Positions 2,474 to 55,952 of a stretch of 64,000 nucleotides of DNA are shown in pieces. Location: positions 231,016 through 295,015 of the forward strand of contig NW_005201318.1 in NCBI RefSeq assembly GCF_000372725.1, given 5' to 3'. The translations under genes were made by a program, and so were the position numbers. The notes below the pieces were generated by a model. It did no database searches. It worked only from the letters and a program-made list of their open reading frames with translations, and had not been told where the DNA came from. Within the stretch, counting starts at the first letter, position 1. Every line of letters starts with the position of its first letter. The DNA is from Emiliania huxleyi CCMP1516 (Eukaryota).

Positions 2474-5400
2474 CTAGTCAAACATGCTCCACGCCGCATG
2501 CTCGCTTTCCAGCACGCCGCACGCGTACCACTCCCTCCACTTGCCGCTGCGGGGCGCCGTCGGCACTGCCGCGGCGGCGGGCGCCTCGCCGCGCAGCTCG
2601 CGCTGCCACTCCACCTCCCACTCCTCGTCGCGCGCGATCGCCTCGTCTCGCCGCCTCTCCGCCTCGCCCACGGCGTCCATCAGCGCCTACGGGGCACGAC
2701 CATCGCCGCACATGTCGCGAATGCGTCGCGGGCGGGCGCCGCGCTTGCGGCGCGTCGGCACCTTTGCGCGCTCGCGGAACTCCCGCTCCGGCAGAAACGC
2801 CGGCACGCCCCGCGGCGGGCGGCCTCCCTCCGCTTCGAACCCTGCCGGGCGGGCGGTGGCAGCCGCTGCCGCCGCGCGCGCCGCCTCTGCCGCGGCGGGC
2901 GGCGGCGGCGGCGAGAGCGGCAACACGTCGAGCGCGTCAAAGTCCGCGTGCTGCGGCGTCGGCCCTGCGCCGTCGCCGGAGGCCGATGGCTGCGGCAGCG
3001 GCGGTGGGAGCGGCGCGTAGCCGGCGAGGCACGAGAACGGGAGCTCGGGGTCGTCCCGCACCTCCTCGTACGCGCGGAAGCCGTGCTTGTACACGCCGAG
3101 CAGCAGCAGCGCGTCGTCGCGCGGGGTCCAGCTGACGGCAGGATGCCTGCCCACACCGCCCGGCGCCGGCGGCGCCTCGAAGGTGTCGAAGGGCGAGGGG
3201 TGTCGCTCGATCGCGTCGGAGAGCCGCTTGAGCGCGAGGAGCCGCTGCAGCAGCGACGCGCCGAGCTTGTGGACCCGCTCAGCGTACTCGGCGCCGCCTG
3301 CGGCAACGTCGTGGACACGTCAGCGGCATGTCACAAGCGGTGGCGAGGAGGAGGAGGAGGAGGAGGAGGAGGAGGAGGAGGAGGAGGAGGGGGAGGGGGA
3401 GGGGGAGGGGGAGGGGGAGGGGGAGGGGGAGGGGGAGGAGGGGGAGGGGCAGGGGCACGGGGAGACGAAGGAGGCGGCGGAGGAGCGCGCTGAGCGGGTG
3501 CAGCGGCGAGGGGCGTCGCAAGGCAGCTCGGGCCGAGGCGAGGGCGGCGGCGGCGTGTGTCGCGATGGAGGGGGAGGGGCGGAAGGAAGTGTATCGGAAG
3601 TGTCCCACACCCGCAGAGACGAGCGGCTCGAGCTCCTCCTCCTGCGCGCGCGTGAGCGAGGGCACCGCCACACCCATCTCGCGCAACACCTCGCGCGCGG
3701 CCGCGATGCCCTCCCGCTCCGCCGCCGACGCCGCCGACGGCCGCTCGTCGGCCTACGGGACATCTCCAGGACATGTCCGACATGTCCTGCACGCGCCAGC
3801 CCATCCTGCCCTACGCCGACGCCGGCTCCAAATCGTCGTCTGCGGCGCCCGACGCACCGTCGTCGACGCCGCTCACGAAGCCGACCGACGCGACGGGCAC
3901 GCCGGTGCAGAGGCAGAGGAACGCGAGCCCGAACTGCGAGATCTCTTCCTCGGAGCGCAGCTTGGTGCCGCCCTGGGCCGCCTCCTTGATCCGCGACCAG
4001 CGGCCTACCCGTTGCGGAAACGAACCAATCAGTCGGAGCCGGGGGGGGGGAGGGGGGGGGGGGGGGCCAAACTAAATCTCGGCTAGATCTCGGCTAGATC
4101 TCGCCAAAGCCGAACGACAGGAGCGCGCGCTCGCAGTTCATCCGCTCCGTCTTCGACCAGACGTGCGCGAGCGCGCGCCGTGCCGCGCGGCGCGCGTCGT
4201 CGTCGTCGCGCCCGCGGCCCGACTTGTAGGCGCGGCCGCCGCGCCGCGAGAGAAAGTCGAGTTCGTCGTCGTCGAGCTCGCCGTCGTCCGCCTGTGAATA
4301 CACGAACATCGGGGCGGGAAGGCGGTGTCGTGCAGCGTCTACTCAGAGCACTTTGTGAGTACGAGGGGTACGAGGGCAGCGAATCCAGCCGAATGCAGCC
4401 GAAGACGGCCGAGTGTAGCGGAATACGAGAAGAGACGATACAGCGACTACGCGACTACGCGTCCCGCTTCTAGGGTCCTCCGCCATGCCAAAGCGCTTGA
4501 CCTGCTTGGTCTGCCGCTTGAGGAAGTACTCGGCGAGCGCGGGGTCCTTCTTCTCGAGCTCGGGCAGGATCTTGGTCCAGAACTCGGGGTCGTCCATGTC
4601 CTGGAAGAGTGGGGCGGGGGGCGGGGGCGAGAGAGAGTTGGGGGTCGCGATAACGAACGCATGCGCCGGCGGCAACTGCCGCCCGAGCTGAAAGCCTGTC
4701 AGGATGTGTCGGCCGGGGAGACTGCGGCGGGCCTCCGGCGGCCGCTGCGCCTTTGCCCTCACACGGCCCTCCCACTCCCCTCCCACTCCTCGCTGTCCGT
4801 ACTCCCCCGCGGCGCCGCTGTCCGAGATGACACACCCGAGATCCGCCGAGATCACACCCGAGGTACGCCGAGAATCGCGCGCCAGCTCATTGTCGTCGGC
4901 GATGAAGGCCGCCTTGGAGAAGACGGAGCCCGAGCCGGAGTCCTCGCCGCCGTACGTCACCTTGGTGGAGGAGGACTCGAGGATCTCGTCGATGTCGGCC
5001 TCGGAGAACTGCTTGAAGCGCGCGTCGCCGTCGCCGCCGTCCTCCATGAAGATGTTGTACGCGCCCCGCTTCAGCATCGCGTCGATCTCCGCGCGGTCCT
5101 GCGTCGGCCCGGCCGGCTTTGCGCCGCCGCGCCCGTCGGGCAAGCCGTCGGCGGCGCGGTCGGCGTTCATGGCGCGCTCGAGGCCGAGCTTGCGGTTGGC
5201 GCGCTCCACCATCTCCGCCTCGTAAGTGTTGCGCGTCACGAGGCGAAAGACCTTGACGCGCTTGGTCTGCCCGATCCGGTGCGAGCGGGCCATCGCCTGC
5301 ACGTCGTTCTGCGGGTTCCAGTCCGAGTCCATCAGGATGCAGGTGTCGGCGGCGGTCAGGTTGATCCCGAGTCCGCCCGCGCGCGTCGAGAGGAGGAAGA

Positions 5401-23664: not shown

Positions 23665-24414
23665 ACGCCCGCGATTTCTTTCCCCACGCTCCTCCTTTGT
23701 ATCTGGCCACGTTCCGCTGACACGGCCCGGACGCGCGTATCTCGCTCGACGCCAACATCCTCCTATCCCCTTGACCAGCGCATTTGGCGCATAGTTCACA
23801 CTTTGTTCTTCTCCGATCGCACTCAACCCGACCCGGGCATGTATCAGTCCTCACCACCCTCAGACCGTGTAGGCGATGTGCGTGACTCTGTCCATCCTTC
23901 ATATGGACCATCATGACCCAGGTGATGTGTGTACAAGTCATTGTACGCACAGTTGGCATTGCATCGTCAATATTATCGCGTCGGTCCGAGTACGAGCTTC
24001 TCCGCTCCCGCTCCCGCGGCTGCTGCTTCGGGACGGCGCCGCGGATCGACTTCAACGGACCTCTGAGTGGGAGGTTCGGCCCGGGCCCGCCCTCCTGCGG
24101 CCAGGCTGGGTGCACCCGGTAGCTGTGGGCTGGGGACAGCCAAGTAGACCGGCGTCGGACCGCGATAGGCCCGATAGTGGGACCATTGTTGGAGCCCGGG
24201 ATATCGGGATGTGAGCCGTCTCCGGGCGTGTTTTGCGTGGTCACGTAGCTATGTCTCCACGTAGCCTGCGGCTTCTGTGAGTCAAACCACGCTTGTCAGG
24301 GATGGGTATGGCATGTGTTGCGAGGCTGGTGAGCTTTCTGGCCGTCAGATTCGGCTCTACCGTCCGGTGTGAAAGGATTGTTGGATCGGCTGGTTTATCA
24401 AGTAAATAGGAGAT

Positions 24415-26442
24415 ATGCTGGAACGGCCAAGTTCAGACATGTCCCATCGGAGCGAGGAGCGTCGCTGGCGTGATGAGCAACGGCGCGCCGAGTGCGGACG
24501 CGAAGAGTGGCGATGGCAGGGCGAGCGACGGCGGTCGCGATCACGCGATGAGCCGCGGCGGGATGAGCTGCGGCGGCGCGACGAGCGTTGGCAAGGCGAG
24601 CAATGGCCGCACCATGACGGGCGGCATGACGAGCGGCGCGGCTACAACGACTCTTGGTGCAGTGGTCGCGAGCAGCGAAGGCACGCTGAGCCACAATTGC
24701 CCGCTGAGCGATGGCACGACGCGCCATTGCGCGGCGAGCAACGGCCGCACCATGACGGGCGGCATGACGAGCGGCGCGGCTACGACGATCGGGGCAGAGG
24801 CGAGCGCGAGCGCGACTGGCACGATCGGCGCGATGACCGGCGCGAACGCGGCGAGGGGCAGCCTCAGCACAGCGGTCGCCGGGAGCGACCGCCGATGCGT
24901 GGTGCGGGATCGCGCGACGAGCGGCAGAGCTCTGCTGCCGGTGGTCAGCTCAACGCTAAGCAGCTCAGCAGCCACATCTCAAATGCTGGCAGCGCTGACG
25001 CATTGCTCGCGCTCTCTGCTGCCCACAGCGCGAGCTTGAACCACATCCACGCTGCGAACCTGTGGAACAAACTGGGCAAGCAGCGCGTCGAGCGGCGGCA
25101 CGAGGAGCGGCTTGAGCAGCTGGTGCAGCGCACGCTCGACCTCGTATCTTCGTGCGAGGCACGTAACCTGGCGAACATCGCTCACGGTGCGGCAAAGTGC
25201 GGCCTGCGAACGAGGGTGGTGCGTTCGCTGTACGCGGCGGTGGCGGAGGCGGCGGTGCGCGGCGGGCTGGATCGCTTCAACCCGCAGGACCTGGCCAACA
25301 CGGTGTGGGCGTATGCGACGGCGGGCGTGGCTGCGGACGCGCTGTACGCGGCGGTGGCGGAGGCGGCGGTGCGCGGCGGGCTGGCTGGCTTCAACCCGCA
25401 GGGGCTGGCCAACACGGCGTGGGCGTACGCGACGGCGGGCGTGGCTGCGGACGCGCTCTACGCGGCGGTGGCGGAGGCGGCGGTGCGGAGCGGGCTGGAT
25501 CGCTTCAAGCCGCAGAACCTGGCCAACACGGTGTGGGCGTATGCGACGGCGGGCGTGGCTGCGGACGCGCTGTATGCGGCGGTGGCGGAGGCGGCGGTGC
25601 GGAGCGGCCTGGTTGGCTTCAAGCCGCAGGACCTAGCCAACACGGTGTGGGCGTACGCGACGGCGGGCGTGGCTGCGGACGCGCTGTACGCGGCGGTGGC
25701 GGAGGAGGCGGTGCGCGGCGGGCTGGCTGGCTTCAAGCCACAGGAGCTGGCCAACACGGTGTGGGCGTATGCGACGGCGGGCGTGGCTGCGGACGCACTG
25801 TACGCGGCGGTGGCGGAGGCGGCGGTGCGCGGCGGGCTGGCTGGCTTCAAGCCGCAGGAGCTGGCCAACACGGCGTGGGCGTATGCAGCGGCAGACCATT
25901 ATCACCAGGCGCTGCTTGCCGACTGCGCCCGCGTGATCAGCGACTCGCTCGCGCGGGATCCGTCAAGGTGGAGCGAGGAGGGCCGCGTTCAGCTTCACCA
26001 GTGGCAGCTCTGGCTCTCTCTTGAGCGAGGCGAAGACGGCCAGCAGCATCTCCTCCCCGCCCCCCAGCGCCAGCTTTGCCGCGACGCTATGGTGGCGACC
26101 GTAGCTCGGCCGTCAGGTTTGCATCGCTCGGTAGCGGCTGCCCTTGCCGCCGTCCGCTCCGGCTTCGAGGAGGAGCATCTCGAGCCGCGCACCGGCTACT
26201 CGCTCGACCTGGCGCTGCCCTCGTCACGCATCGCGGTCGAGGTGGACGGCCCCTCTCACTTCCTGCTGCCCGACGGCCGGGGCGTGCGCAGACCCAATGG
26301 GCCGACGCTGCTCAAGCGGCGCCTCCTTGCGGCGGCTGGCTGGAGGGTGATCAGCGTTCCATTCTACGAGTGGGACGGCTTCGCGACGGCCAAGGAGCGG
26401 CAAACCTACCTGCAGGGGGCGGTCGCCCCGCTGTTGGGCTAG
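24415..26442 (+). CDS. RAP-domain protein with tandem ~38-aa OPR/FAST-like helical repeats and an R/D/E-rich N-terminus
   Basis: Six F(N/K)PQxLANT(V/A)WAYA repeats. C-terminal GYSLDLAL...IAVEVDGPSHF...TLLKRRLL...GWRVISVPFYEW is a RAP domain. Single ORF. Confidence 0.92.
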   Translation: MLERPSSDMSHRSEERRWRDEQRRAECGREEWRWQGERRRSRSRDEPRRDELRRRDERWQGEQWPHHDGRHDERRGYNDSWCSGREQRRHAEPQLPAERWHDAPLRGEQRPHHDGRHDERRGYDDRGRGERERDWHDRRDDRRERGEGQPQHSGRRERPPMRGAGSRDERQSSAAGGQLNAKQLSSHISNAGSADALLALSAAHSASLNHIHAANLWNKLGKQRVERRHEERLEQLVQRTLDLVSSCEARNLANIAHGAAKCGLRTRVVRSLYAAVAEAAVRGGLDRFNPQDLANTVWAYATAGVAADALYAAVAEAAVRGGLAGFNPQGLANTAWAYATAGVAADALYAAVAEAAVRSGLDRFKPQNLANTVWAYATAGVAADALYAAVAEAAVRSGLVGFKPQDLANTVWAYATAGVAADALYAAVAEEAVRGGLAGFKPQELANTVWAYATAGVAADALYAAVAEAAVRGGLAGFKPQELANTAWAYAAADHYHQALLADCARVISDSLARDPSRWSEEGRVQLHQWQLWLSLERGEDGQQHLLPAPQRQLCRDAMVATVARPSGLHRSVAAALAAVRSGFEEEHLEPRTGYSLDLALPSSRIAVEVDGPSHFLLPDGRGVRRPNGPTLLKRRLLAAAGWRVISVPFYEWDGFATAKERQTYLQGAVAPLLG

Positions 26443-34248: not shown

Positions 34249-35452
34249 TCTGATGCTCTTGTTCCGGCATCGCGATGGAAGTAGCCGACGAACTAGTAGC
34301 TGACCACAGCACCTAGCTGACGACAGTACGTTGGGTTCCGCTCCGCCCGCTGCCCGCCGCCCCGCCGCAAACCATTCTCCCCCCACACACACTTTGATAG
34401 CTGATACCGTGGGCCCGCGCACCCCGTGGCCGCTGGGTGCAACAACGTCCTATTCGAGAGAGGAATCCCTGGGACCCTGTCATGTGGGTGAACACTGCCC
34501 AGCCCCTGGCCTCCCTCTGTCGCGATAGAGCCGCGATGCGCGCCGATGGCGATACGCTCCGCCCCGCTCCTGTTACCTACCTGAGCTGTGCCCTGGTTTG
34601 TAGTAGTCTACCCCCCAAAACGATTTCTGACCTCTCCCGTGGCCCCGGCGGCGCGGGCCCGGCGGAGGTCCGGCGCGGCGCTCCAAATCCGCACTTCGCG
34701 AGCTTCTACGGGAGTTCACGCGGCCTCTCCGCCTCGTGAGGCACACCCCACACTCACCACGAGCCCTGGGACTGTGCGCGGATCTTTGGCCGCGGCGTCC
34801 GGAGCTTTGGTCGTCGAACATCGGCCGCCAACTAGGCCATCGAGCACGGTGGTGCGCGAGTGTTAGCGAGAAAGTTGCGGGTAGAGCCATGCCCGACTTT
34901 TCGAAGACGAGCCCCACGCCACGGATGCCAGCCGTGCCTTCGCGGGAGTCGTCTCTCGAGCCGCGTCCCGTCGGCACTGAGTGTCCCTGAGTGCGTCCCG
35001 CCTTGGCGGCACACACTCTCGACGAGGACAGTCCTGCCTAACGGGAACGTGTCGCGCGACGGCGACGATTGCGGCGTGGTCGTTGTCTGTACGAAGCGAC
35101 GATGGCACGCGCCCCCGCGAGAGAGATCACATGCCGCGCGCGCTCGCACACGCCGCCCAAGAGCACTCCCACCCTCGCCGCCCTCGCCAGCCCGCAGCCA
35201 GGTCTTTTGGGGAGAAGTGCTGAGGGAGATCAAAGCGGGAGCTGCGGGAGAAGGCGGCACGGCGGCGGCGGCGGCGCGGCGCCCCCCCCATCTCCATCCG
35301 CCTCCGGGCGTGAGTTTCCCCCCAGACGCACCCGGACGACCTCCCTGTCGACAAGGAGCCCAAATCCTCCGTCGCGGTGGTCGTTGGTCGTGACGCGCCC
35401 ACGCCGCTCTCACGCAAAGTCGAGAGCGGACAGACAGCGAACGACATTCCTC

Positions 35453-38400
35453 ATGGGCCGCAAGCCGCTCGCGTCCGCCCGCACGGCCAGCCGCTCGGCG
35501 GCGGCGGCGGCGCACGTGCTCTCGCAGTGCCTGAGGGCGGCCGCCCTCTACCTCGGCAGTGATAGCCTATTTCATGGACGGATCAGCGTGCCGGTGTTCG
35601 CGGCGGCCACGCACGCCGCCGTCGCCGCCACGCTTGCGGCGGCGTACCGACCGCCGCTTGCTGCCGCCCTCGCAAACGCGCACGCACTGCTGCTCTCTGG
35701 CGCAGCGTGTGCGGCGTCGCTCTGCCTGTGGTCGCTCGGCCTCGCGCGGTGCGGCCCGCTGCGCACCACCCTGCTCGACTACTCCGAGCTCGTCGTGGCG
35801 AACGTGCTCGCGGCCCTTTCCGGCAGGCCGGTGCGGCAGCGCGGGCGGCGGCGCGGCCTTCTCGCCCTGCTTCTCGCCTATGCCGCGCTGCTGCTCACCC
35901 ACGGCATGCACCACCGCGATGGCGGCGGCGGCAAGGCGGAGCGCTTCTTCGAGCCCGAGAGCGGGGTGTACGACTCTGCGCGCTCGCTCCTGGACTCGGC
36001 CTCCGGCGAGGCTGCGCTCGCTGCCGCCGCCGCCATCAACGCGCTGCGGCGGTCGGCGAGTCTAGAAGCGGAAGACGGATTCTTGTCCTCCACTCGAGAG
36101 GACACGCCCTCCGCTGTATTCGACCGTATTCCGCGGTCTTCACCGTGTTCGCACCCCTCGCATTCACGCGGTGCTCTGAATACAATGCACAACACCGTCT
36201 CCCGCCCTGACGCTGGCCTTCACACAAAAGCGCAGCCCAGGGCCCAGAGATCGCACGCCACACGGACAGTCGAGAACGGGCAGGCGGACAGAGACCGACT
36301 TGGTGTTCACCATGTAGGTCGGCGAGCCGCCGCCTCGAGGCTGAGGTCGGGCCAAACCGGCTGGAGGCGCTGACGCACGCTGCAGCCGGTTTGCTGCTGC
36401 TGCTGCTACTGCTTGCTCAGGCGTTGCTCGTCCTCCCTGCGCCCCTCCCCTCCCTGCCGCCGCCCGCCGCCGCTTCCGCCGAGAAGGGGCCTGCCGGTCT
36501 CGAAGATTGGCCGCGACTGACCGAGATCGACGCCTCGTCCTCCCAGGCGACACTCGCCCAATCCAAGGGCAGAGATGAGAGCCGCGAGGACGTCCACGCC
36601 AGTCTCGCTTCGGCGACGGCGGCGCCGCTCGCGGTCGCTTGGCTCGCGACGGTTCTGCCGGCGCACGCGGCCGCCGCGGCGCACGCCTGGCTGCGGCCCG
36701 CCGCCGCTGCCGCCCTCTCGGTCGCAGCCGCCTTTGGAGCCGCCCTCCTCCTCGACGCGCTGCGGGGGAGCGCCACCGGCGCAGCGTCCGCTACACCCCT
36801 CCTCTGCGCATGCGCTGCCGCCGTCGTCTACGGAGTTTGGGCGCTCCACGGAGGAGGAGGCGGCGCGGCTGCCGCGCCGCCGCCGCCGCTGCCCGTCGCC
36901 GCGCCACCGGCGCGCGGCTGGGGCGGAGAGGCGAGGCGCGCGCTGCTCGGCTCGCCGCAGGTGCCCCGGCAGAGTCTGAGATCGGCGGGAGAGGGTGGCG
37001 ACGTGCAGCGCGCGTCACAGTGTAGTCCCTGTAGTCTAGTCGTCTAGTCCCTCTAGTCCCTCTAGCCCCTCTAGTAGTCCCTCTAGTAGTCCCTCTAGTG
37101 CCTCTTCTCCCTCTAGTCCTTCTAGTAGTCCCTCTAGTAGTCCCTCTAGTGCCTCTTCTCCCTCTAGTCCCTCTAGTAGTCCCTCTAGTAGTCCCTCTAG
37201 TGCCTCTTCTCCCTCTAGTCCTTCTAGTAGTCCCTCTAGTAGTCCCTCTAGTGCCTCTTCTCCCTCTAGTCCCTCTAGTAGTCCCTCTAGTTCCTGGTGT
37301 CCCTTTAGCCGGATCTAAGACCTTGTAGATCTGTAGCCTCCAAGGCGGGTTTCGTCCAGCCATGCCGCGTGCCGTGCCGCTTAGGCGCAACGCCTCTCCG
37401 CCTTCCTCGCCCTCAACTTGGCGCTGATGGGGGTGGAGGTGGTCGCCGGCTTGCGCTCCAACTGCCTCGCCCTCGTCTCGGACGGCGCTCACATGCTCAT
37501 CGACTCCGCCGCCGTCGCCGTCGGCCTCGCCGCCGCCGCCGCCGCCTCGCTGCCCGCCGACGCATCCTTCGGCGCGGGGTACGGCCGCGCCGAGCCCCTC
37601 GCCGTCTTTGCCAATGGGCTGCTGCTGCTGCTCATCGGCGGCGGCGTGGGCGCGGAGGCGGCACGACGACTCCTCGCCGCCGCGCCACCGCCGATAGACG
37701 GCGGCGCGGCGCTGCCCGCGGCGGCGGCTGGCCTGGCTGTGAATTTGATCGGCCTCGCGCTCTGCTCGCACTCGCACATGCACGCAGGCGGGGAGTGCTG
37801 CGCGGCGGGCGGCGACGCGGCCGGCGCGGGCGGAGACAACTTGCGTGCAGTCGCCATGCACGCACTCGCGGACGCGTGCGGTTTTCCGTCGCCTAGAAGC
37901 GGAAGATCTCCCCATATCTCCCCCCGTATCTCCCCGCACCTGGCAGCACGGAGGCTAGAAGCGGAAGGCGTGCTCTTGTACTCCACCCCGCGCTTGAGAG
38001 GACACCGTACCGACAACGGAGACCAGACAGCGACGACAGTCAGAAGAGGCAGCATTGGGTCCCAGGAGGTGAGGAAGTGGTGTCTTGACCATATGCAGGC
38101 TCCGTCGGCGCCATCGTCTCCTCCCTGGCCGCAGAGTGGTACGGCTGGCGCTGGGTCGACCCAGTCTGCTCGCTCCTCACCGCCACCCTGCTCCTCACCT
38201 CCGCGCTTCCCCTCGTGCGGCGTTCGGCGAGGGTGCTACTGCTTTGCGCGCCCGCCGGCCTCGACGCGCCAGGCGCCCCCCCCCCCCCTTTCTCCACCCC
38301 CTTACCTCCCCCACCCCCACCCCCTCCCTTTCCGCCCCCTCCCTCTCCGCCCCCTCCCTCTCCGCCCCCTCCCTCTCCGCCCCCTCCCCCTCCGCCTCCT

Positions 38401-38866
38401 CCCTCTCCTCCTCCTCCTTCCCCCCTCCCCCGTCCCCAACCCTCCCCCCCTCCCCCCCCTCGGTCTCCGACTGCTTTTTGTATTTGGGACGGAAGCCCTG
38501 AACCTTTCCGCAGGCTCGACCGAGGAGCTCGCCTCGGAGATCGTTGCCGCTGTGCCAGGCGTGCGCCGCGTCGCGGACATACGAGTCTGGATGCACACGG
38601 CGGTCTCCTCCACGGCAACCACGACGGTGACGGTGGAGCCAGCGGGCAGCAGCGGCAGCTTTGGCGGCGGGGAGGGGCGAGCCTGCGCGGTCAGTCGCGG
38701 CGTGGAGGCGGTGCTTCGCCGGCGCGGCGTGGCGCGGGTGTACGTGCAGGTCTTGCGCGAGGGGAGCGGCACGTGGGCCGCAGAGGAGGCGCGGCGTGGT
38801 GGGGAAGAGGCGCGGATTGGCCGCGCGGAGGAGACAAGACGATCCGTTGGGTCGGGTGACGCTTGA
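35453..38866 (+). CDS. Multi-exon cation diffusion facilitator zinc transporter (ZnT5/Msc2/MTP12-like, long N-terminal TM region)
   Basis: LALNLALMGVEVVAG...SNCLALVSDGAHMLID, GYGRAEPLAVFANG, His loop HSHMH and NLRAVAMHALADAC|GSVGAIVSS...WVDPVCS. Introns 36052-36317, ~36961-37384, 37881-38098 and ~38273-38513. Confidence 0.88.
36061..36316 (+). mobile_element. Introner-like element, copy B
   Basis: Perfect 10-bp direct repeat GGTCGGCGAG at 36051-36060 and 36317-36326. Starts TCTAGAAGCGG. Confidence 0.85.
37020..37290. repeat. Intronic TAGTCCCTC / TAGTGCCTCTTCTCCC satellite
   Basis: Visible tandem array with a higher-order ~51-bp unit. Confidence 0.95.
37892..38097 (+). mobile_element. Introner-like element, copy C
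   Basis: Flanked by GGTTTTCCGTCG (37880-37891) and GGCTCCGTCG (38098-38107). Starts CCTAGAAGCGG, and its 3' end tggtgtcttgaccatatgcag resembles copy B tggtgttcaccatgtag. Confidence 0.75.
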
Positions 38867-41508: not shown

Positions 41509-41699
41509 CTCCGAGGTAACACGAATGGGGCTGGCGAGGCACTCCCACGCCTCTCGGGGTTCGTTTAGTCGGGCCCCGAGTGCGAGTCTGCTGGGGCGAG
41601 CCTTGGCGATCAGCGTTCAGCTGTTCCCACACTCGGGCGCGCGCGAAGAGGTGTGAAGACGGGGTTGTGCGATTACGTGAAACTCAGAGCCCAACGACA

Positions 41700-43814
41700 A
41701 TGCCCGCCTCGCGCTCCCGCGCCAACGCCGCGCTCCGCACGCCGCCGCCGCCGTCTGCTGACAGCGCGCCGGGTGGTGAAGTCCCAAAGAACGTCCTCAA
41801 GGCGGCTGAGGACGGCCGTGTGGGACCGGTGCGATCGTGGCTGAATGACGGCGGGAAAGCCAACAATCTCGCTGAGCTACCCTCTCAGGTCAGCGGCCGC
41901 ACGGTTCCATACACCCTGCTGATCCTCGCCGCACAGAGTGGGCACGCGCAGATTGTCGAGCTCCTCCTGAAGCGTGGCGCGGACATCAACCTGCAGAACA
42001 GTTGCGGCACCACTGCGCTCAACGCTGCCGCCTTCCGTGGCCGCGAGCGGGTGGTGGAGATGCTGCTGCAGCACGGAGCGGAGATGGGGACGGCGCTGGT
42101 ATTTTCCGCCCAGGGTGGACAAGAGCGGGCGGTCGACCTGCTGCTGCGGCGTGGCGCGGAGATCGACCTGCAAGACATGAACGGTGGCACCGCGCTGATT
42201 CTCGCCGCCTGCTTCAACCGCCCCGCCGTCGTTCTCCGCCTGCTGCGGGCGGGCGCGGACATGACGTTGCGCGATGCGGCGGGCAGGACGGCGCTACAGA
42301 TTGCCAAGGAGGACGGCCACGCCGAGTGCTTCCAGGCCTTCAAGACGTATCTCGGGGAGGTGGCTTCGCGCCGGAGCAAGGCACCATCGGCAGGCGGCGC
42401 AGTGGCGGTGGGTGCGAGTGCCGCGGCCTCTGCTCCGAGCGGCGAGGGAGGCGCGGAGGTCGAGCCGAGCGGCGGGGCGGTGCATAAGGAGGTTTTGGAC
42501 GCGGCTGAGCGAGGCGATGAGGAGGCGGTGCTGGCGTGGCTCGACGGCGGCGGGCAGGTCGACGCGGCGTTCGAGTTCGTCTTTTCGGACGGCCCTGAGA
42601 GCGGCATGACGCTGCTGATGCTCGCAATGATCTGCGGCCGCGAGGGGCTGGCCGAGGTGCTGCTCCAGCGCGGCGCGGATGTCTCGTTGCAGACCAGCAA
42701 TGGCGCCACCGCGCTGATGGGCGCCGCCGTGAATGGCCACGAGAAGCTGGTCGAGATGGCGTTGCGGCACGGCGCGGTGATCGACCAGCGAAACGAGTTG
42801 GGCAACACTGCACTAATAAACGCCGCCGGCAGAGGCCACAAGCAGACTGTCGACTCGTTGATCCGGCACGGCGCGGACATCGACGTCCAGTGCAACAACG
42901 GCGACACCGCACTGAGTCGGGCCGCTTTCTACGGCCAGCCCGCCGCCCTTCTCTGCTTGCTGCGGGCGGGCGCAGACGTGACACTGTGCAGTGCAGATGG
43001 CAAGACCGCGCTGCAGTGGGCCAAGCACAAGGGCCACACTGAGTGCGTGCGCGCCCTCGAGGAGCATGCGGCGGCCGAGAAGGCGGCGGAGAAGGCGGCG
43101 GCGGAGGCGGCGTGGGCCGCGGGAGCGGCGGAGAGGGCGGCGCAGAGGGCGGCGGAGGAGAAGGAGGCGGCGCGGCACGCCGAGGAGCTGCTGGCGGAGG
43201 TCGAGGCGGAGAAGCGCGCCAAGGGCAAGAAGAACAAGAAGAAGAAGAAGAAGGGCGGCGGGGCGGGCGGGGCGGGGCCGTCGCAGGAGCCCGAGGAGGT
43301 TGCCGAGGCGCCGTCGGAGGCAGCCGCAGCCGAGGCGGCGAAGAAGGCCGAGGAGGCGAGGCTTCTCCTGCTTCTCGAGACGCTCACCGAGGAGAGGATG
43401 CGGCTCGGCATCACGGCGGAGAGCCAGGCCGCTGCGTCGGCCGAGGTGGCCGAGGCGGCACGCTTGGACGCTGAGGCGGACGCGGCGGAGGAGGAGGCGG
43501 AGGAGGAGGCGGAGGCGGAGGCGGCGGCCGTGGCGGCGCTGGCTGTGGCCAAGGCTGTACGGGCGGAGTCCAGGGCGGCGCAGGCGGAGGCCAGGGCGGC
43601 GATGGACGAGGTCGTGGCGGCACTTGAGGAGGCCAAGGGGGCGGTGGAGAAGGCCACGGTGGCGATGGAGAAGGCCACGGCGGCGCGTGAGGGGGACGAG
43701 ACGGCGTTTGAGGAGGCTGCGGCCGCTGCCGAGGCAAGGGGTGCTGCTGCTGCCGCTGCGAGGGTCAGGGCGACCGCCGCCAGGATGGCAGCGGAGGCGG
43801 CCCAGCGCTCATAG
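41700..43814 (+). CDS. Ankyrin-repeat protein (two ANK modules) with poly-Lys stretch and Ala/Glu coiled coil
   Basis: GTTALNAAAFRGRERVVEMLL and GxTAL repeats, AAERGDEEAVLAWLDGGG cap, KKNKKKKKK. Single ORF. Confidence 0.9.
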   Translation: MPASRSRANAALRTPPPPSADSAPGGEVPKNVLKAAEDGRVGPVRSWLNDGGKANNLAELPSQVSGRTVPYTLLILAAQSGHAQIVELLLKRGADINLQNSCGTTALNAAAFRGRERVVEMLLQHGAEMGTALVFSAQGGQERAVDLLLRRGAEIDLQDMNGGTALILAACFNRPAVVLRLLRAGADMTLRDAAGRTALQIAKEDGHAECFQAFKTYLGEVASRRSKAPSAGGAVAVGASAAASAPSGEGGAEVEPSGGAVHKEVLDAAERGDEEAVLAWLDGGGQVDAAFEFVFSDGPESGMTLLMLAMICGREGLAEVLLQRGADVSLQTSNGATALMGAAVNGHEKLVEMALRHGAVIDQRNELGNTALINAAGRGHKQTVDSLIRHGADIDVQCNNGDTALSRAAFYGQPAALLCLLRAGADVTLCSADGKTALQWAKHKGHTECVRALEEHAAAEKAAEKAAAEAAWAAGAAERAAQRAAEEKEAARHAEELLAEVEAEKRAKGKKNKKKKKKGGGAGGAGPSQEPEEVAEAPSEAAAAEAAKKAEEARLLLLLETLTEERMRLGITAESQAAASAEVAEAARLDAEADAAEEEAEEEAEAEAAAVAALAVAKAVRAESRAAQAEARAAMDEVVAALEEAKGAVEKATVAMEKATAAREGDETAFEEAAAAAEARGAAAAAARVRATAARMAAEAAQRS

Positions 43815-45897: not shown

Positions 45898-48800
45898 TTA
45901 CCAACCGCCCCGCCCCACGCCCCGCCCGCCCCGCCCGCCCCTCCCGCCCCGCCCACCGCGTCCGCCGCGTCCGCGCCTGCCGACTGCCGGCATAGCGCCG
46001 CCGGCCGGCGGAGGGTTCGGCACCGCGCGAGGAGACTGGTAGACAAAGGTCGTCTGCGCCGCCACGCATGCTCCAGTGTCGACGATCGGCAGCGCCGGAC
46101 GGCGGCAGGCCGGGCAGTTGGTGTCGCGCTCCAGCACGCGCGGCGCACATGCCTCGCAGTACAGCGCGTGGCCGCACGCGAATCGAACCGAGCGAGGCGC
46201 GTCGTAGCAGAGGTCACACTGGCGCTCCTCGGCCCCAGCCGTCTCCTCCACCGCCCCCGCCGCCTCGACCAGCGCCTCCAGCCTCGGCAGCGCCTCCGCG
46301 AGCGGCATCCGCCTCTTCTTCCGAACGAACGCCAGCCCGACCACGAGCCGCGCCAGCTCCTCGGCCTGCGCCTCCGACCAGCCCGCGTCGGCCGCCGCGA
46401 TGCTCTCCGCCGTGTCGGGCTCCTCCAGCGCATCATCGCACGCGCTGAGCAAGCCGAGAGCGCCGCGGCCGGTCAGGGCGACGAGCAGCGTGATGCCGAG
46501 CGCGAAGCCGTCAGTGAGCTGCGAAGCCTGGCCGTCGTTGAGGATGATCTGGTCAATGTAGCCGGGCTTGCCAAAGAGGCGCTGCGTCGACAGGTGCGAG
46601 ACCTGTCCGCCGGCCGTTGCCTCTGCCGCGCGCGCGAGGCCCACGTCGGCGAGGTAGCCGTTGCCGCGCTCGTCGAGCAAGATGTTGCCCGCCGAGACGT
46701 CGCGGTGCAGGATCATCGGAGAGAGCGTGTGCAAGTAATGCAGCGCTCTCGCCGCGTCGCGCAGGACGCGGAGCCGTGCGGCGGCGGAGAGCGGCGAAGG
46801 CGGCGTCTCGAAGCCGAGCATGCGGAGCCGCTGCAGCGCGGCTGGCGAGCGGTAGAGGCGGTCCTCGAGGCTGCCGCCGCGGCAGAGGGGGTAGACGAGG
46901 CACGCTCTCGCCGGCGCCAAGCAGACGCCGAGCAGAGGGAGCAGGGACGGGTGGCACGCCGCGCTGAGCGTACGCACCTCGCTCTGCAGCTCGGCGAGGC
47001 CTTGGGCGCCGACACCGACCAGCGCCGTCTTGACCGCGAACCCGCAAGCGACGCGCGGAAGCGACGGCAGCGCGTCGGCGCGGTAGACGCGCCCAAAGCC
47101 TCCCTCGCCCACCTTGCGCGCCTCGGCAAAGCCGTCGGTCGCCGCGATGAGCTCGTCGAGAGGGACGGCGGCGGGCGGCGCGGCGGCGGCGGCGAGGGCG
47201 GCAACACTCGCCGCCGCCTTCGCCGCCTCCGCCGCCGCTGCCGCCGCCTCCGCCGCCTCTTGAGCCTCCGCTGCCTCTCGAGCCTCCGCCGCCGCCACGG
47301 CCGCCACTGCCGCCTCTACAGCCGCCGCCTCCGCCTCCGCCTCCGCCGCCGCCACCTCCGCCGCCTCCGCCTCCGCCCTCAACCTCGCCTCTTCCCTCTC
47401 CCTTGCAGCCTCCTCCCTTGCCCTCGCCTCTGCCTCCTCCCTAGCCCGCGACGCGGCCTCCGCCTCCTCCGCCGCCCGCGCCGCCGCATCCGCCTCCTCC
47501 GCCGCCCTCGCTACCGCCGCCGCCTGCCTCGCCGCCGCCTTCTCCTCCTTCTGTCGCTGCCGCTTCAGCGCCCTGGCCTCGCGGGTCCTGCGCTCCGCCA
47601 TCTCGTCGCGCAGCCGCCGCGCCGCCCGCAGCGCCTCCGAGCCGTCGGCGGCGTCGGTGTTCGCGTTGATCGCCGCCCTGAGCGCCTCGAGATCGGCGTC
47701 GCCTCGACCGCACGCCTCAACCGCCTCGCGCAGCGCCGCCTCGGCAGCATCGCGCGCCTCCGCCGCCTCCGCAGCCGCTGCCGCCTCGCGTGCGGCCGCC
47801 GCGGCCTGTTCGGCTGATTCTGCGACCACCGTCTCCCTCTCCGCCTCTGCTGTGGTCGACGAGTGCTCCTCGAAGGCGCGCACGCACTCGGCGTTGCCCT
47901 CCTCCTTGGCAACCTGCAGCGCCGTCTTGCCGCTTTCAGAGCGCACCGCCGTGTCTGCACCCGCCCGCAGAAAGCGCCGCACGACGGCGGGGCGGTTGAG
48001 GAGGGCGGCGTACATCAGCGCGGTAGCGCCGTCGCTGTCCCGCAAGTTGACCTCAGCGCCGCGCCGTACCAGCAAGTCGACCACCTGCTCGTGGCCTTGG
48101 TCGGCGGCGTGCATCAGCGCGTTCCAGCCTTTGCTACTCTGCAGGTTGACCTCAGCGCCGCGCCGCATCAGCAAGTCGACCACCTGCTCGTGGCCTTGGT
48201 CGGCGGCGGCCATCAGCGCGGTGCCGCCGCCGCTGGCCGGCAGGTTGATCTCAGCGCCGCGCCGCATCAGCAAGTCGACCACCTGCTCGTGGCCCTGGCC
48301 GGCGGCGATCATCAGCGCGGTGTCGCCGTCGCTGCTCTGCTGGTTGACCTCTGCGCCGCGCTGCAGCAGCAACTCGACCAGCCGCTCCTGGCCGTGGCCG
48401 GCGGCGCCCATCAGCAGCGTGAAGCCGCTCACGCCGGCTCTCTCGTACGTCGCGTTGACCCGCCCGCCGCCCTCGAGCCACGCCAGCACCGCCGCCTCCT
48501 CGCCTCGCTCAGCCGCTGTCACGACCGCGTCGGAGACTGCCGCGGCACCGCCTGACACTGGCTCCGCCGCTGCCGGCGACAGATTACCCGGCCGCACTCG
48601 CACGCTCTCGCCGCCGCCCTCGAGCGCCACCGCGTACCGCCCGCCCTCGAAGCTCCGCGCCACGCCCCACCGCCCGTTCAGCTCGGGGCGGGCAGAGAGC
48701 CCGCCGAGCACGACTCGCTGGCCGAGGAGCGGCGCGTCCTCAGCTGCTGCCGCTGCCGCGCCCGAGGAAGCGCGGTCGGCCCCTACCCGGCCCTCCGCAG

Positions 48801-51800
48801 CCGCCGCCGCTGCCTTAGTCAAGATCTTGACGCACGCGGCGTTGCCCTTCTCCTTGGCAACCTGCAGCGCCGTCATGCCGCTTTCAGAGCGCACCGCCGT
48901 GTCTGCGCCCGCCCGCAGCAAGCGCTGCACGACGGTGGGGCGGTTGAAGAAGGCGGCGATCATCAGCGCGGTGCCGCCGGTGCTGTGCTGCAGGTTGACC
49001 TCAGCGCCGTGCCGAATCAGCAGCTCGACCACCCGCTCGTGGCCTTGGTCGGCGGCGAACATCAGCGCGGTCCAGCCGTCGCTGTTCTGCTGGTTGACAT
49101 CAGCCCCACGCCGCAGCAGCAGCTCGACCACCTGCTCGTGGCCGTTGTTGGCGGCGAACATCAGCGCGGAGGAGCCGTCGCTGTCCTGGAGGTTGATCTC
49201 CGCGCCGTGCTGCAGCAGCAGCTCGACCACCCGATCGCGGCCGTGGCCGGCGGCGCCGATCAGCAGCGTGATGCCGCTAGTCTCGCCTCTCTCGTACGTC
49301 GCGTCGACCCGCCCGCCACCGTCAAGCCACTCCAGCACCGCCTCCTCCTCGCCTCGCTCCGCCGCTGCGATGACCGCATCGGGGGCTGCCACGCCACCGC
49401 TCGGCGCCCGCCTCGCCGCCACCGCTGGAGATAGCGTCTTCGCGGCTCTCGATCCAGCCGAGGAAACGCCGCCTGCGGATTCGCCGCCGGCTGCCGTCGC
49501 CGTGGGCCGTCCCGCCACCACCTCCTGGACGTGCTTCTTGAAGGCATCGACGCACTCGGCGTGGCCCTCCTGCTTGGCCATCTGCAGCCCCGTCATGCCG
49601 TTTGCATTGCGCGCCGCCGTGTCTGCGCCCGCCTGCAGCAAGCGCCTCACAACGGCGGGGCGGTTGAAGACGGCGGCGAGCATCAGCGCGGTGGAGCCGT
49701 CGCTGCTCTGCAGGTTGATCTCCGCGCCGCGCCGTATCAGCAAGTCGACCACCCGCTCGCGGCCGTGGAGGGCGGCGCCCATCAGCGCGGTGCCGCCGTC
49801 GCTGTCCTGCTTGTTGATCTCCGCGCCGCGCTGCAGCAGCAGCTCGACCACCCGCTCGTGGCCGCTGCGGGCGGCGCCCAGCAGCAGCGTGAGGCCGCTC
49901 ACCTCGCCTCTCTCGTACGTCGCGTTGACCCGCCCGCCGCCTTCGAGCCATGCCAGCAGCGCCTCCTCGTCGCCTCGCACAGCCGCTGCGAGGATCTCAT
50001 CGGAGACTGCCGCGGCACCGCTCGACGCCCGCTCCGCCGCCGCCGGCGACAGATTACCCGGCCGCACTCGCACGCTCTCGCCGCCACCCTCAAGCGCCAC
50101 CGCGTACCGGCCGCCCTCGAAGCTCTGAGCCACGCCCCGCTGCCCGTTCAGCTCGGGGCGGGAGGAGAGCCCGCCGAGCACGACGCGCTGGCCGAGCAGC
50201 GGCGCGTCCTCAGCTGCCGCTGCCGCGCCCGAGGAAGCGCCGTCCGCCCCTGCCCGGCCCTCAGCAGCCGCCGCCGCTGCCTCAGTCAAGAAACTGACGC
50301 ACTCGGCGTTGCCCTTCTTCTTGGCCGTCTGCAGCGCCGTCATGCCGCTTTCAGAGCGCACCGCCGTGTCTGCGCCCGCCCGCAGCAAGCGCCGCACGAC
50401 GGCGGGGCGGTTGAAGAAGGCGGCGATCATCAGCGCGGTGGCGCCGCTGTCCTGCAGGTTGACATCAGCGCCGCGCCGTATCAGCAGCTCGACCACCCGC
50501 TCGTGGCCTTCCTGGGCGGCGACCATCAGCGCGGTGGAGCCGTCGCTGCTCTGGTTGATCTCAGCGCCGCGCTGCAGCAGCAAGTCAACCACTCGCTCGT
50601 GGCCCCCTTGGGCGGCGGCCATCAGCGCGGTGACGCCGATGCTGTTATGCAGGTTGAGCTCAGCGCCGTGCCGAAGGAGCAAGTCGACCACCCGCTCGTG
50701 GCCGTACACGGCGGCGCCCATCAGCAGCGTGAGGCCGCTCACCTCGCCGCTCTTGTACGTCGCGTCGACCCGCCCGCCGTCCTCGAGCCACGCCAGCACC
50801 GCCGCCTCCTCGCCTCCCTCAGCCGCTGCGATGACCGCATCGGAGACTGCCACGCCACCGCTCGACGCCCGCCCCGCCGCCACTGCTGGAGATAGCGTCT
50901 CCGCGACTCTCGATCCAGCCGAGGAAACGCCGCCGGAGGAAGCGCCGCCTGCGCCTTCGCCGCCGGCTGCCGTCGCTGCGGGCCGTCCCGCCACCACCGC
51001 CTCCTGGACGTGCTTCTTGAAGGCCTCGACGCACTCGGCGTGGCCCTCTTGCTTGGCAAGCTGCAGCGCCGTCTTGCCGTTTGCATCGCGCGCCGCCGTG
51101 TCTGCGCCCGCCCGCAGCAAGCGCCGCACGACGGCGGGGCAGTTGAAGACGGCGGCGAGCATCAGCGCGGTGCAGCCGTTGCTACTCTGCAGGTTGATCT
51201 CCGCGCCGTGCCGAAGCAGCAGCTCGACCACCCGATCGTGGCCGTTGCCGGCGGCGTCCATCAGCAGCGTGAGGCCGATGTTACTCTGCAGGTTGATCTC
51301 AGCGCCGTGCTGCAGGAGCAAGTCAACCACTCGCTCGTGGTCGGCGGCGGCCATCAGCGCGGTGCAGCCGATGCTGTTCTGCAGGTTGATGTCCGCGCCG
51401 TGCTGCAGCAGCAACTCGACCACCCGCTCGTGGCCGTAGAAGGCGGCGCCGATCAGCAGTGTGAGGCCGCTCACCTCGCCGCTCTCGTACGTCGCGTCGG
51501 CCCGCCCGCCGCCCTCGAGCCACGCCAGCACCGCCGCCTCCTCGCCTCGCTCAGCTGCTGCCACGACCGCGTCTGGGGCTGCCGCGCCACCGCCTGACAC
51601 TGGCTCCGCCGCCGCCAGCGACAGATTACCTGGCCGCACCCGCACGCTCTCGCCGCCGCCCTCGAGCGCCACCGCGTACCGCCCGCCCTCGAAGCTCCGC
51701 GCCACGCCCCACCACCCGTTCAGCTCGGGGCGGGCAGAGAGCCCACCGAGCACGACGCGCTGGCCGAGCAGCGGGGGGGCGTCCACAGCCGCTCGGCACA

Positions 51801-51801
51801 T
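45898..51801 (-). CDS. 1967-aa protein: three SH3-like repeats, five ankyrin modules, coiled coil, IRAK/Pelle-like kinase, RING finger and RGG tail
   Basis: GQRVVLGGLSxRPELNG three times and ANK repeats. Kinase motifs GEGGFGRVY, AVK, HRDVSAGNILL, DVG and GKPGYID. RING CDLC...CGH...CEAC...CPAC. Confidence 0.92.
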   Translation of the reverse strand: MCRAAVDAPPLLGQRVVLGGLSARPELNGWWGVARSFEGGRYAVALEGGGESVRVRPGNLSLAAAEPVSGGGAAAPDAVVAAAERGEEAAVLAWLEGGGRADATYESGEVSGLTLLIGAAFYGHERVVELLLQHGADINLQNSIGCTALMAAADHERVVDLLLQHGAEINLQSNIGLTLLMDAAGNGHDRVVELLLRHGAEINLQSSNGCTALMLAAVFNCPAVVRRLLRAGADTAARDANGKTALQLAKQEGHAECVEAFKKHVQEAVVAGRPAATAAGGEGAGGASSGGVSSAGSRVAETLSPAVAAGRASSGGVAVSDAVIAAAEGGEEAAVLAWLEDGGRVDATYKSGEVSGLTLLMGAAVYGHERVVDLLLRHGAELNLHNSIGVTALMAAAQGGHERVVDLLLQRGAEINQSSDGSTALMVAAQEGHERVVELLIRRGADVNLQDSGATALMIAAFFNRPAVVRRLLRAGADTAVRSESGMTALQTAKKKGNAECVSFLTEAAAAAAEGRAGADGASSGAAAAAEDAPLLGQRVVLGGLSSRPELNGQRGVAQSFEGGRYAVALEGGGESVRVRPGNLSPAAAERASSGAAAVSDEILAAAVRGDEEALLAWLEGGGRVNATYERGEVSGLTLLLGAARSGHERVVELLLQRGAEINKQDSDGGTALMGAALHGRERVVDLLIRRGAEINLQSSDGSTALMLAAVFNRPAVVRRLLQAGADTAARNANGMTGLQMAKQEGHAECVDAFKKHVQEVVAGRPTATAAGGESAGGVSSAGSRAAKTLSPAVAARRAPSGGVAAPDAVIAAAERGEEEAVLEWLDGGGRVDATYERGETSGITLLIGAAGHGRDRVVELLLQHGAEINLQDSDGSSALMFAANNGHEQVVELLLRRGADVNQQNSDGWTALMFAADQGHERVVELLIRHGAEVNLQHSTGGTALMIAAFFNRPTVVQRLLRAGADTAVRSESGMTALQVAKEKGNAACVKILTKAAAAAAEGRVGADRASSGAAAAAAEDAPLLGQRVVLGGLSARPELNGRWGVARSFEGGRYAVALEGGGESVRVRPGNLSPAAAEPVSGGAAAVSDAVVTAAERGEEAAVLAWLEGGGRVNATYERAGVSGFTLLMGAAGHGQERLVELLLQRGAEVNQQSSDGDTALMIAAGQGHEQVVDLLMRRGAEINLPASGGGTALMAAADQGHEQVVDLLMRRGAEVNLQSSKGWNALMHAADQGHEQVVDLLVRRGAEVNLRDSDGATALMYAALLNRPAVVRRFLRAGADTAVRSESGKTALQVAKEEGNAECVRAFEEHSSTTAEAERETVVAESAEQAAAAAREAAAAAEAAEARDAAEAALREAVEACGRGDADLEALRAAINANTDAADGSEALRAARRLRDEMAERRTREARALKRQRQKEEKAAARQAAAVARAAEEADAAARAAEEAEAASRAREEAEARAREEAAREREEARLRAEAEAAEVAAAEAEAEAAAVEAAVAAVAAAEAREAAEAQEAAEAAAAAAEAAKAAASVAALAAAAAPPAAVPLDELIAATDGFAEARKVGEGGFGRVYRADALPSLPRVACGFAVKTALVGVGAQGLAELQSEVRTLSAACHPSLLPLLGVCLAPARACLVYPLCRGGSLEDRLYRSPAALQRLRMLGFETPPSPLSAAARLRVLRDAARALHYLHTLSPMILHRDVSAGNILLDERGNGYLADVGLARAAEATAGGQVSHLSTQRLFGKPGYIDQIILNDGQASQLTDGFALGITLLVALTGRGALGLLSACDDALEEPDTAESIAAADAGWSEAQAEELARLVVGLAFVRKKRRMPLAEALPRLEALVEAAGAVEETAGAEERQCDLCYDAPRSVRFACGHALYCEACAPRVLERDTNCPACRRPALPIVDTGACVAAQTTFVYQSPRAVPNPPPAGGAMPAVGRRGRGGRGGRGGRGGRGGRGVGRGGW

Positions 51802-52058
51802 GCCCGCGCCCGCGATTTCTTTTTCTTACTTTCATCTGTTTTCGGGGCCCACTCCCTTTGCAGCCACTCATAAAATCGTTGGGTCGCTTCAGTTCACGAA
51901 GTCCCCCCGTGGGCCGACCCTCCGATTTTATGAGAAGAGAACAAAGGGAGTGTTCGGGGCCCCGTGTTGCGTTTACGAGAGAGATTTTTAGCAATACCAA
52001 ACAACTCTAACACTCACACGTAATTTGGGGCCTGGAGCCCTGTTCACTGAACAACGCT

Positions 52059-55601: not shown

Positions 55602-55952
55602 CAGGCGGCCCTGTCCGCCTGTGCTTCTGGCGGGGCGCGTTGAGCCGTGCAGGCTGCAGCTGCAGCACTAGCAGGACGTAGAGGAGCTAGGAGCGTTAGA
55701 GTGTCGAGCGTGGTGCGAGGCCGAGGCTCGCTCACTCCAACAGTCGCGGGGGGGTCTGTCCGCGGGCTGCCAGGCTCCGACTGTGGGTGTGGCGTATCTA
55801 TCTGGGCGGTGGCCGGTGTCTCCGGGGAGCAGCAGCAGGGGGGCGGGCCTTCCCGCGCTTCCGCGACCGCGTTCCCGCGGCGCGGCACCCGCAGCACTTT
55901 ACGGCGGCCTGATTCCCCTTTTTCCTATAGGTTTTGATCGTATATACGAATC

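What the first reader, a model, noticed from the sequence alone, without database searches (positions are those of the whole stretch)
36051..36326. Introner-like element: a mobile element whose 10-bp target-site duplication creates a precisely spliceable intron (copy B)
Seen: the zinc-transporter exon is interrupted by a 256-bp insert (36061-36316) flanked by a perfect direct repeat GGTCGGCGAG. The left copy supplies a G|GT donor, and the insert's terminal A plus the right copy's G form the AG acceptor. Removing 36052-36317 restores the frame (LRRSASRRLEAE) with no footprint. The insert starts YCTAGAAGCGG, as do two other introns in the window, and it shows no terminal inverted repeats. Established: TSD-assisted intron creation by transposons is known in Micromonas and Aureococcus. 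Inference: this is an intron-generating family in this alga with ~10-bp TSDs (a Mutator-like length) but no TIRs. I cannot tell whether it has been described.
Basis: partly seen in the sequence, partly recalled or inferred. Interest (0 to 1): 0.9.

Follow-up and report, generated by a model that had tools for sequence, protein, structure and literature searches.

The report
Intron-making mini-transposon family in Emiliania
A short repeated DNA element, found in many genes of a coccolithophore alga and spliced out cleanly at this site, is likely an old non-autonomous transposon that created new introns by borrowing its 5' splice site from the host gene, which would help explain this alga's unusual GC/GA splice donors.

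Summary
An RNA contig skips exactly 266 nt (GT..AG) at 36052-36317; five DNA runs show no empty allele. The host is Emiliania (Gephyrocapsa) huxleyi or a close relative. A metagenome scan gave 28 loci; with the window, 27 independent copies have both ends. Intron bases +2..+9 match the next exon's +2..+9 at 164 of 216 positions (shuffles: mean 74, max 103). The duplication is not 10 bp: base -1 is not G in 8 of 27 copies. Short imperfect inverted ends exist (CCTAG..GAA.ACG / CGT.TTC..TAGG; 11-12 of 17). Best model: an ~180-nt MITE with an 8-bp target duplication. It carries the AG acceptor, its last G replaces the host G, and the donor is host G plus the first duplicated base. Donors are GC 16, GT 6, GA 5, matching exon composition without GG. 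Copies are ~74% alike, so the burst is old. Introners are known, also in this species, but the tabulated families are 37-70 nt with TSD/TIR unresolved. New member of a known kind; no transposase found.

The parts
36052..36317 (+). Copy B intron, 266 nt, GT..AG
   Evidence: RNA contig joint; frame restored
36052..36052 (+). Host G that becomes intron +1 (8-bp model)
   Evidence: G at this place in 27 of 27 copies after five by-eye indel shifts; role inferred
36053..36060 (+). Left target-site duplicate (8 bp), intron +2..+9; its first base completes the donor
   Evidence: 8 of 8 identical to 36319-36326; family 164 of 216
36061..36318 (+). Element, copy B (8-bp model): family core 36061-36220, a ~80-nt extension shared with copy C and L008, then the 3' end
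   Evidence: nhmmer E 1.7e-39 to the family model; extension alignment
36061..36077 (+). Left imperfect inverted end (family CCTAGAAGCGGAA.ACG)
36302..36318 (+). Right imperfect inverted end; holds the AG acceptor (36316-36317) and the G (36318) that starts the next exon
   Evidence: AG followed by G in 23 of 23, partly imposed by the anchor choice
36319..36326 (+). Right target-site duplicate (8 bp), exonic
4292..4483 (-). Copy A intron, 192 nt, GC..AG, downstream of a chromo/SNF2 helicase exon; element 4474-4291, duplicates 4482-4475 and 4290-4283 (7 of 8)
   Evidence: splicing inferred from frame, not seen in RNA
37881..38098 (+). Copy C intron, 218 nt, GT..AG, in the Cation_efflux domain; element 37892-38099 with a duplicated 5' end and an internal deletion; left duplicate carries a 2-nt insertion and a C>T change
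   Evidence: (profile 3-147 then 150-198); the CCMP1516 model P0001 reads across the same junction in another frame
35444..38250 (+). Host gene, likely one cation-efflux (zinc transporter-type) gene holding copies B and C
   Evidence: PF01545 on 37385-37879 and 38101-38250; RNA contig covers 35405-36961 and runs on; single-gene link inferred

Best explanation
Copy B is a spliced intron made by one member of a repeated ~180-nt element that is likely a non-autonomous cut-and-paste DNA transposon (a MITE-type introner) with imperfect ~17-bp inverted ends and an 8-bp target-site duplication. Inferred mechanism: a transposase supplied in trans inserts CCTAG...YAGG into an exon at G|X8, giving G X8 [CCTAG...YAG G] X8. 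The spliceosome cuts at the host G (donor = G + X1: GC, GT or GA) and at the element's own AG. The element's last G then stands in for the host G, so the mRNA is unchanged. Only sense insertions just after a G, with X1 not G, survive selection; a branch-point-like CTGAY/CTCAY ~23 nt before the AG likely explains the one-way orientation. Shown: splicing of B, the family, fixed ends, the site-specific duplication, the donor spectrum. Inferred: 8 versus 9 bp, the transposase, the branch point, selection. The burst is old and the element is probably inactive. The mobilizer is most likely hAT-like (about 45%) or KDZ/Novosib-like (about 25%).
For: RNA joint of 266 nt, GT..AG. 28 loci from an interior motif that contains neither end; both ends conserved. 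Per-position identity of intron +2..+9 with next exon +2..+9: 16-19 of 23 each, permutation p<=0.0002; +10 3 of 22; -1 without site-specific signal. All 27 copies: 164 of 216, null mean 74, max 103 of 20000; control windows null. Inverted-end match 7.63 of 17 with the G after AG included, 3.33-5.19 in eight other registers. Target profile symmetric about the 8-bp centre (r 0.83, best of 15 pairings) and anti-symmetric about the 9-bp centre (r -0.85); T at X2 12 of 27 and A at X7 10 of 27, not reached by any of 51 control columns. L028: conserved TCP|FEP of CCT5 fixes -1 as C. Second donor base at insertion C17 A5 T4 G1 fits exon composition among non-G (p 0.70) and lacks G (p 0.0002). Branch-like motif 12 of 27 sense, 2 of 27 antisense. 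About 510-550 contigs per DNA run lay on the stretch, mostly on the element core.
Against: No empty allele: no joint across 36052-36317 in 5 of 5 DNA runs, and no orthologue's genomic DNA could be fetched. No autonomous element found. The inverted ends are weak (consensus 11-12 of 17, per copy 3-13) and their first three matches follow partly from my anchors. The symmetry test rests on 3 column pairs (p about 0.07), T at X2 and A at X7 co-occur in only 3 of 27 sites, and codon position could bias them. The 8 non-G at -1 do not exceed the 24% mismatch rate of the intronic duplicate (p 0.32). No copy outside an apparent intron was found, so 8 bp plus terminal G cannot be told directly from 9 bp. 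Only B has RNA support; twelve copies had at least one end set by eye. CCTA..TAGG does not fit the usual hAT terminus (recalled).
Confidence: 0.7

Rival explanations
1. Same introner, but a Mutator-like element with a 9-bp duplication (G X8); the element is CCTAG...YAG and the whole donor comes from the duplication.
For: Formally identical in every intron-forming copy; +1 is G on both sides; weak inverted ends and 9-bp duplications suit some MULEs (recalled).
Against: Inverted ends align only when the G after AG is counted as the element's; target symmetry is -0.85 about the 9-bp centre against 0.83 about the 8-bp centre.
Confidence: 0.18
2. An RNA-mediated element: a SINE-like retroposon, or introns spread by reverse splicing.
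For: All 27 copies look genic and in one orientation; many RNA contigs hold element sequence; Micromonas and fungal families without TIRs are known.
Against: Both ends are fixed, duplication length is constant apart from five 1-2-nt shifts, there is no poly(A) tail or 5' truncation series, no Rfam hit and no unusual fold (z -0.98). A reverse-spliced lariat would carry the old site's first 9 nt, but these match the new site's exon.
Confidence: 0.06
3. One reading: a TIR-less element with a 10-bp duplication whose G completes the acceptor.
For: Fits copy B perfectly; -1 is G in 19 of 27.
Against: -1 is T, A or C in 8 of 27, and cannot have been G in the CCT5 Pro codon; exon-final G is the ordinary donor preference; inverted ends exist.
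Confidence: 0.03
4. Pre-existing introns secondarily invaded by a repeat, or local tandem duplication, with the flanking match a coincidence.
For: These introns do acquire microsatellites and local duplications; chance 10-bp repeats are common in the window.
Against: The element begins at +10 (+11 or +12 in five copies) and ends at the acceptor; the site-specific match is far beyond shuffles.
Confidence: 0.03

Closest known systems
Introner elements of Micromonas pusilla and Aureococcus anophagefferens (Huff et al. 2016, recalled; review PMC11282704 parts 1-2 read; Gozashti 2022 passages)
   Same: Short non-autonomous DNA transposons with TSD and TIR; one splice site carried, the other co-opted; mRNA unchanged. 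Aureococcus elements have 8-bp TSDs.
   Different: Micromonas IE1 carries the donor and co-opts the acceptor from a 3-bp TSD. Here the acceptor is carried, the donor is likely split between an unduplicated host G and the TSD, only one orientation was seen, and copies are only ~74% alike.
Symbiodinium microadriaticum family 1 and Polarella introners (Gozashti 2022 Fig. 2B legend; review)
   Same: Carry the 3' splice site, co-opt the 5' site from the TSD; associated with GC-AG-rich genomes.
   Different: 4-bp TSD in Symbiodinium; another lineage; no sequence comparison was possible.
Emiliania huxleyi CCMP1516 introner families in Gozashti 2022 (5 families) and 2025 (3 families)
   Same: Same species or a close relative; GT/GC donors; 2025 fam24 is 'co-opt 5' carry 3''.
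   Different: Listed lengths 37-70 nt, TSD/TIR '?' or 'N' in 2022, TSD 2-4 bp or none in 2025, no GA donors.
hAT-superfamily MITEs (Ac group)
   Same: 8-bp TSD and short TIRs; T at target position 2 and A at 7 resembles the Ac-group nTnnnnAn (recalled).
   Different: Termini CCTA..TAGG rather than the usual YA..TR (recalled); TIR imperfect; no transposase identified.
KDZ/Zisupton and Novosib DNA transposons
   Same: 8-bp TSDs for Zisupton/KDZ; a Novosib-1_EmiHux entry exists for this species.
   Different: Their termini in E. huxleyi could not be seen; the KDZ TIRs I read of are 139-241 bp.

Membership tests
Introner (intron-generating TE) | Multiple introns in unrelated genes with end-to-end similarity | tested here: met
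   27 copies in the window and 18 loci, both ends conserved
Introner (intron-generating TE) | Spliced at the predicted borders | tested here: met
   Copy B in 1 of 3 RNA runs; other copies only by frame or homology
Introner (intron-generating TE) | Absent from orthologues or from other alleles | tested here: inconclusive
   No empty allele in 5 DNA runs; no outgroup genomic DNA reachable
MITE / class II TIR element | Fixed-length site-specific TSD | tested here: met
   +2..+9, 164 of 216 against null mean 74
MITE / class II TIR element | Terminal inverted repeats | tested here: met
   Imperfect only: consensus 11-12 of 17; register-specific mean 7.63 vs 3.33-5.19
MITE / class II TIR element | Short, non-coding, high copy | tested here: met
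   181-nt consensus; ~510-550 contigs laid per DNA run
hAT (Ac group) | 8-bp TSD | tested here: inconclusive
   8 bp favoured over 9 by TIR register and target symmetry, not separable directly
hAT (Ac group) | Target consensus nTnnnnAn (recalled) | tested here: inconclusive
   T 12 of 27, A 10 of 27, both 3 of 27
hAT (Ac group) | Terminal motif YA..TR (recalled) | tested here: not met
   Ends are CCTA..TAGG; therefore not filed as hAT
hAT (Ac group) | Autonomous partner encoding a hAT transposase with the same ends | not testable with these tools
   No genome held; window and prokaryote/virus scans blank
Mutator/MULE | 9-bp (8-11) TSD | tested here: inconclusive
   10 bp excluded; 9-bp centre anti-symmetric
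KDZ/Zisupton/Novosib | Shared termini with an autonomous element | not testable with these tools
   Repbase sequences not available
Non-LTR retroposon (SINE/LINE/Penelope) | Variable TSD length, 5' truncation, tail | tested here: not met
Helitron | No TSD, CTRR 3' end | tested here: not met
   TSD present

The most novel reading that the evidence does not exclude
This family and its decayed relatives made thousands of E. huxleyi introns and are a main cause of the species' GC-majority, GA-tolerant splice donors: donors were sampled from exon sequence at insertion rather than mutated from GT, and then drift towards GT (3 of 3 observed changes: GG>GA, GA>GT, GC>GT). The mobilizer would be an 8-bp-TSD transposon with CCTA..TAGG ends not yet linked to intron gain.
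Probability: 0.3. Interest if true: 0.72.

Novelty: new member of a known kind. Interest (0 to 1): 0.5.

Why it matters
E. huxleyi is a model bloom alga whose 56-65% GC donors and ~4% GA donors were put down to high genomic GC content (PMC4028052). This family offers a concrete route: when the donor is borrowed from exon sequence, its spectrum follows exon composition (GC 16, GT 6, GA 5 here). It appears to have escaped two large surveys, plausibly because similarity starts at intron +10, the edge of their 10-base window, copies are ~74% alike, and the JGI models mis-call GC donors. It gives hundreds or more dated insertion sites for testing how new donors evolve and a profile to correct gene models. 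The class of mechanism is already established.

Tried and rejected
No whole genome is held, so no genome-wide count or transposase search. Element patterns found nothing in viral contigs or GTDB; a 17-letter end pattern gave 5 viral loci, all without the element by nhmmer, taken as chance. 30 window frames scanned with Pfam showed no transposase (39 or more of the 69 long frames were not scanned). Rfam: no match in 6 loci. Folding of intron B is no better than shuffles. A homologue search with the exon before B found nothing; the one used the wrong frame but hit an E. huxleyi model at 94%. Pfam on four downstream exons of loci was blank (frames not checked); PDB search with the 22-aa L028 downstream exon was blank. 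Three look-ups of earlier findings were empty. Helitron (CTAG end) and Penelope/SINE readings were dropped once both fixed ends and the constant duplication were seen. Depth ratios (about 450-1100 times local depth) are not used as a copy number, as the tool warns. Dropped rows: L009, L014, L018, L024, L026 (same loci as window B, window A, L004, L016, L023) and L001, L005, L012, L013, L019 (one end cut off). X13 and X14 do not span the junction: no evidence either way. Huff et al. 2016 is not held.

Full report
Observation. The repeat, the insert and the restored frame are as described. Of three RNA runs laid on 35400-37020, one (X11) has a 2230-nt contig that skips 266 nt with GT..AG ends; the other two do not span the site; the DNA run X9 holds the insert. 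Four more DNA runs show no joint across the insert. So B is a spliced intron, and no empty allele was seen in 5 of 5 DNA runs. A peptide from the window matches an Emiliania huxleyi CCMP1516 model at 94%, which places the host in or next to that species. No genome is held.

Family. I scanned the metagenome collection with an interior 26-letter motif shared by copies A and B, which contains neither end nor the duplication, and got 28 loci. Five repeat other loci (two are the window's own A and B sites) and five have one end cut off. A profile built from 15 copies gave a 181-nt consensus and found further copies in the flanks. With the three window copies, 27 copies have both ends. Ends were set by fuzzy end-motif scans, taking the outermost where an end is locally duplicated; for twelve copies at least one end was set by eye, when I could see the flanks. 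Pairwise identity among the 15 seed copies is 61-83%, median 74%. DNA runs lay about 510-550 contigs each on the B stretch, concentrated on the core; the window has 3 copies in 64 kb (a selected window) and the 23 distinct loci 6 extra copies in 41.8 kb. Hundreds of copies is safe, thousands is plausible.

Duplication. In the first 23 copies, each of intron +2..+9 matches the same position of the next exon in 16-19 of 23 (permutation p<=0.0002); +10 matches in 3 of 22; +1 is G on the exon side in all; -1 carries no site-specific signal. For all 27, without any indel shift, 164 of 216 bases match against a shuffle mean of 74 and maximum of 103; flanking control windows do not differ from shuffles. 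After shifting five donors by 1-2 nt by eye, base -1 is G 19, T 4, A 2, C 2. That share alone does not exceed the mismatch rate of the intronic duplicate (p 0.32), but in L028 the element sits in CCT5 inside the Pro codon of the conserved TCPFEP motif, where -1 must have been C at insertion. The 10-bp reading fails, and the AG belongs to the element.

Ends. The 5' end is CCTAGAAGCGGAA.ACG and the reverse complement of the 3' end, counting the G after the AG, is CCTACGTG.TGAATACG: 11 of 17 in the 27-copy consensus, 12 in the 15-copy one, 3-13 per copy, mean 7.63 against 3.33-5.19 in eight other registers. The first three matches are partly imposed by my anchors; positions 11-17 are not. The symmetry CCTA..TAGG implies that the exon's first G is the element's last base and the duplication is 8 bp. 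Independently, the exon-side 8-mers have T at position 2 (12 of 27) and A at 7 (10 of 27), levels not reached in 51 control columns, and their profile is symmetric about the 8-bp centre (r 0.83, best of 15 pairings, so p about 0.07) and anti-symmetric about the 9-bp centre. T and A co-occur in only 3 sites, and codon position was not controlled. No non-genic copy was found that would settle 8 versus 9 directly.

Mechanism. Inferred: a trans-acting transposase inserts the element at G|X8. The intron runs from the host G to the element's AG, the element's last G replaces the host G, and the mRNA is unchanged. The second donor base on the exon side is C 17, A 5, T 4, G 1: G is avoided (p 0.0002) and the rest follows exon composition (p 0.70), so GT was not favoured. 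Present donors are GC 16, GT 6, GA 5; the three changes are GG>GA, GA>GT and GC>GT. All 27 copies face the same way; sense was confirmed by homology or RNA only for A, B, C and L028. A branch-point-like motif lies mostly 23-24 nt before the AG, 12 of 27 by a strict pattern against 2 of 27 at the other end; B, with its 3' extension, has CCGAC at -20 instead. No autonomous element was found.

Literature. Ten full-text searches found no description of this family; most subscription papers, among them Read et al. 2013 and Huff et al. 2016, are not held and are recalled only. Gozashti 2022 (PMC9860276: passages, section 26, supplement rows, file cut when stored) lists 653 introners in 5 families for CCMP1516, average length 37-70 nt, TSD/TIR '?' or 'N', and describes carried-acceptor/co-opted-donor families and donors partly recruited from neighbouring exon. 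Gozashti 2025 (PMC12130899: passages, section 6, supplement rows, files 13-14 not searched) lists 3 families of similar size, one hitting Novosib-1_EmiHux. Their consensus sequences, kept outside the papers, could not be seen. Feldmesser 2014 (PMC4028052, passages) reports 56% GC, 40% GT, 4% GA donors in curated genes and ascribes this to GC content. The review PMC11282704 (parts 1-2 of 5) links introner spread to relaxed donors in dinoflagellates. For superfamily features I read passages of PMC12730594, PMC3942097, PMC3517528, PMC5751038 and 10.1101/2025.05.19.654958: 8-bp TSDs fit hAT and KDZ/Zisupton. The Ac-group target nTnnnnAn and the hAT terminal motif are recalled, not read.

Verdict. 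It works like a MITE-type introner and meets the tests I could run for one, except absence from orthologues, which is open. It is not filed under hAT because its termini do not fit. It is a new member of a known kind, apparently large and overlooked, in a model alga. Its best use is as a test of why E. huxleyi has mostly GC donors. Interest 0.5.

Noticed in passing
L004, L006, L022, L011, L016; window B and C: Copies cluster: neighbours 30, 67, 77, 251, 596, 770 and 1563 nt apart, which suggests local hopping or gene-level targeting.
   Followed up: partly
window 37892-37953; L001, L006, L007, L008, L011, L022: An element end is often duplicated locally with an ATCTCCCCAT-type microsatellite between the two copies: a recurring intron-expansion process of unknown cause.
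   Followed up: no
window 36221-36301 versus 35409-35449 and 55755-55795: The 3' extension shared by B, C and L008 weakly resembles sequence just upstream of the host gene's start (E 0.014) and another spot (E 0.049); possibly a captured fragment.
   Followed up: partly
window 36421-36546: The X11 contig also skips 126 nt here; shifted by 3 nt this reads as a GC..AG intron with CAGGCG at both borders, not of this family.
   Followed up: no
window 36092 versus L009: A 10-nt indel inside intron B separates the window from L009 and run X9; L009 keeps the family-like longer form.
   Followed up: partly
window 37022-37295: Intron filled by a CTAG-rich tandem repeat, period 51, 5.3 copies.
   Followed up: no
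P0001 / window 37800-38860: The CCMP1516 model EMIHUDRAFT_440463 reads this region in a different frame from the Cation_efflux frame, probably a mis-translated model.
   Followed up: partly
window 45898-51825 (minus), 41520-43814, 24406-26442: A 1975-aa frame with many ankyrin repeats, a kinase and a RING finger; a second ankyrin frame; a RAP/FAST-domain frame.
   Followed up: no
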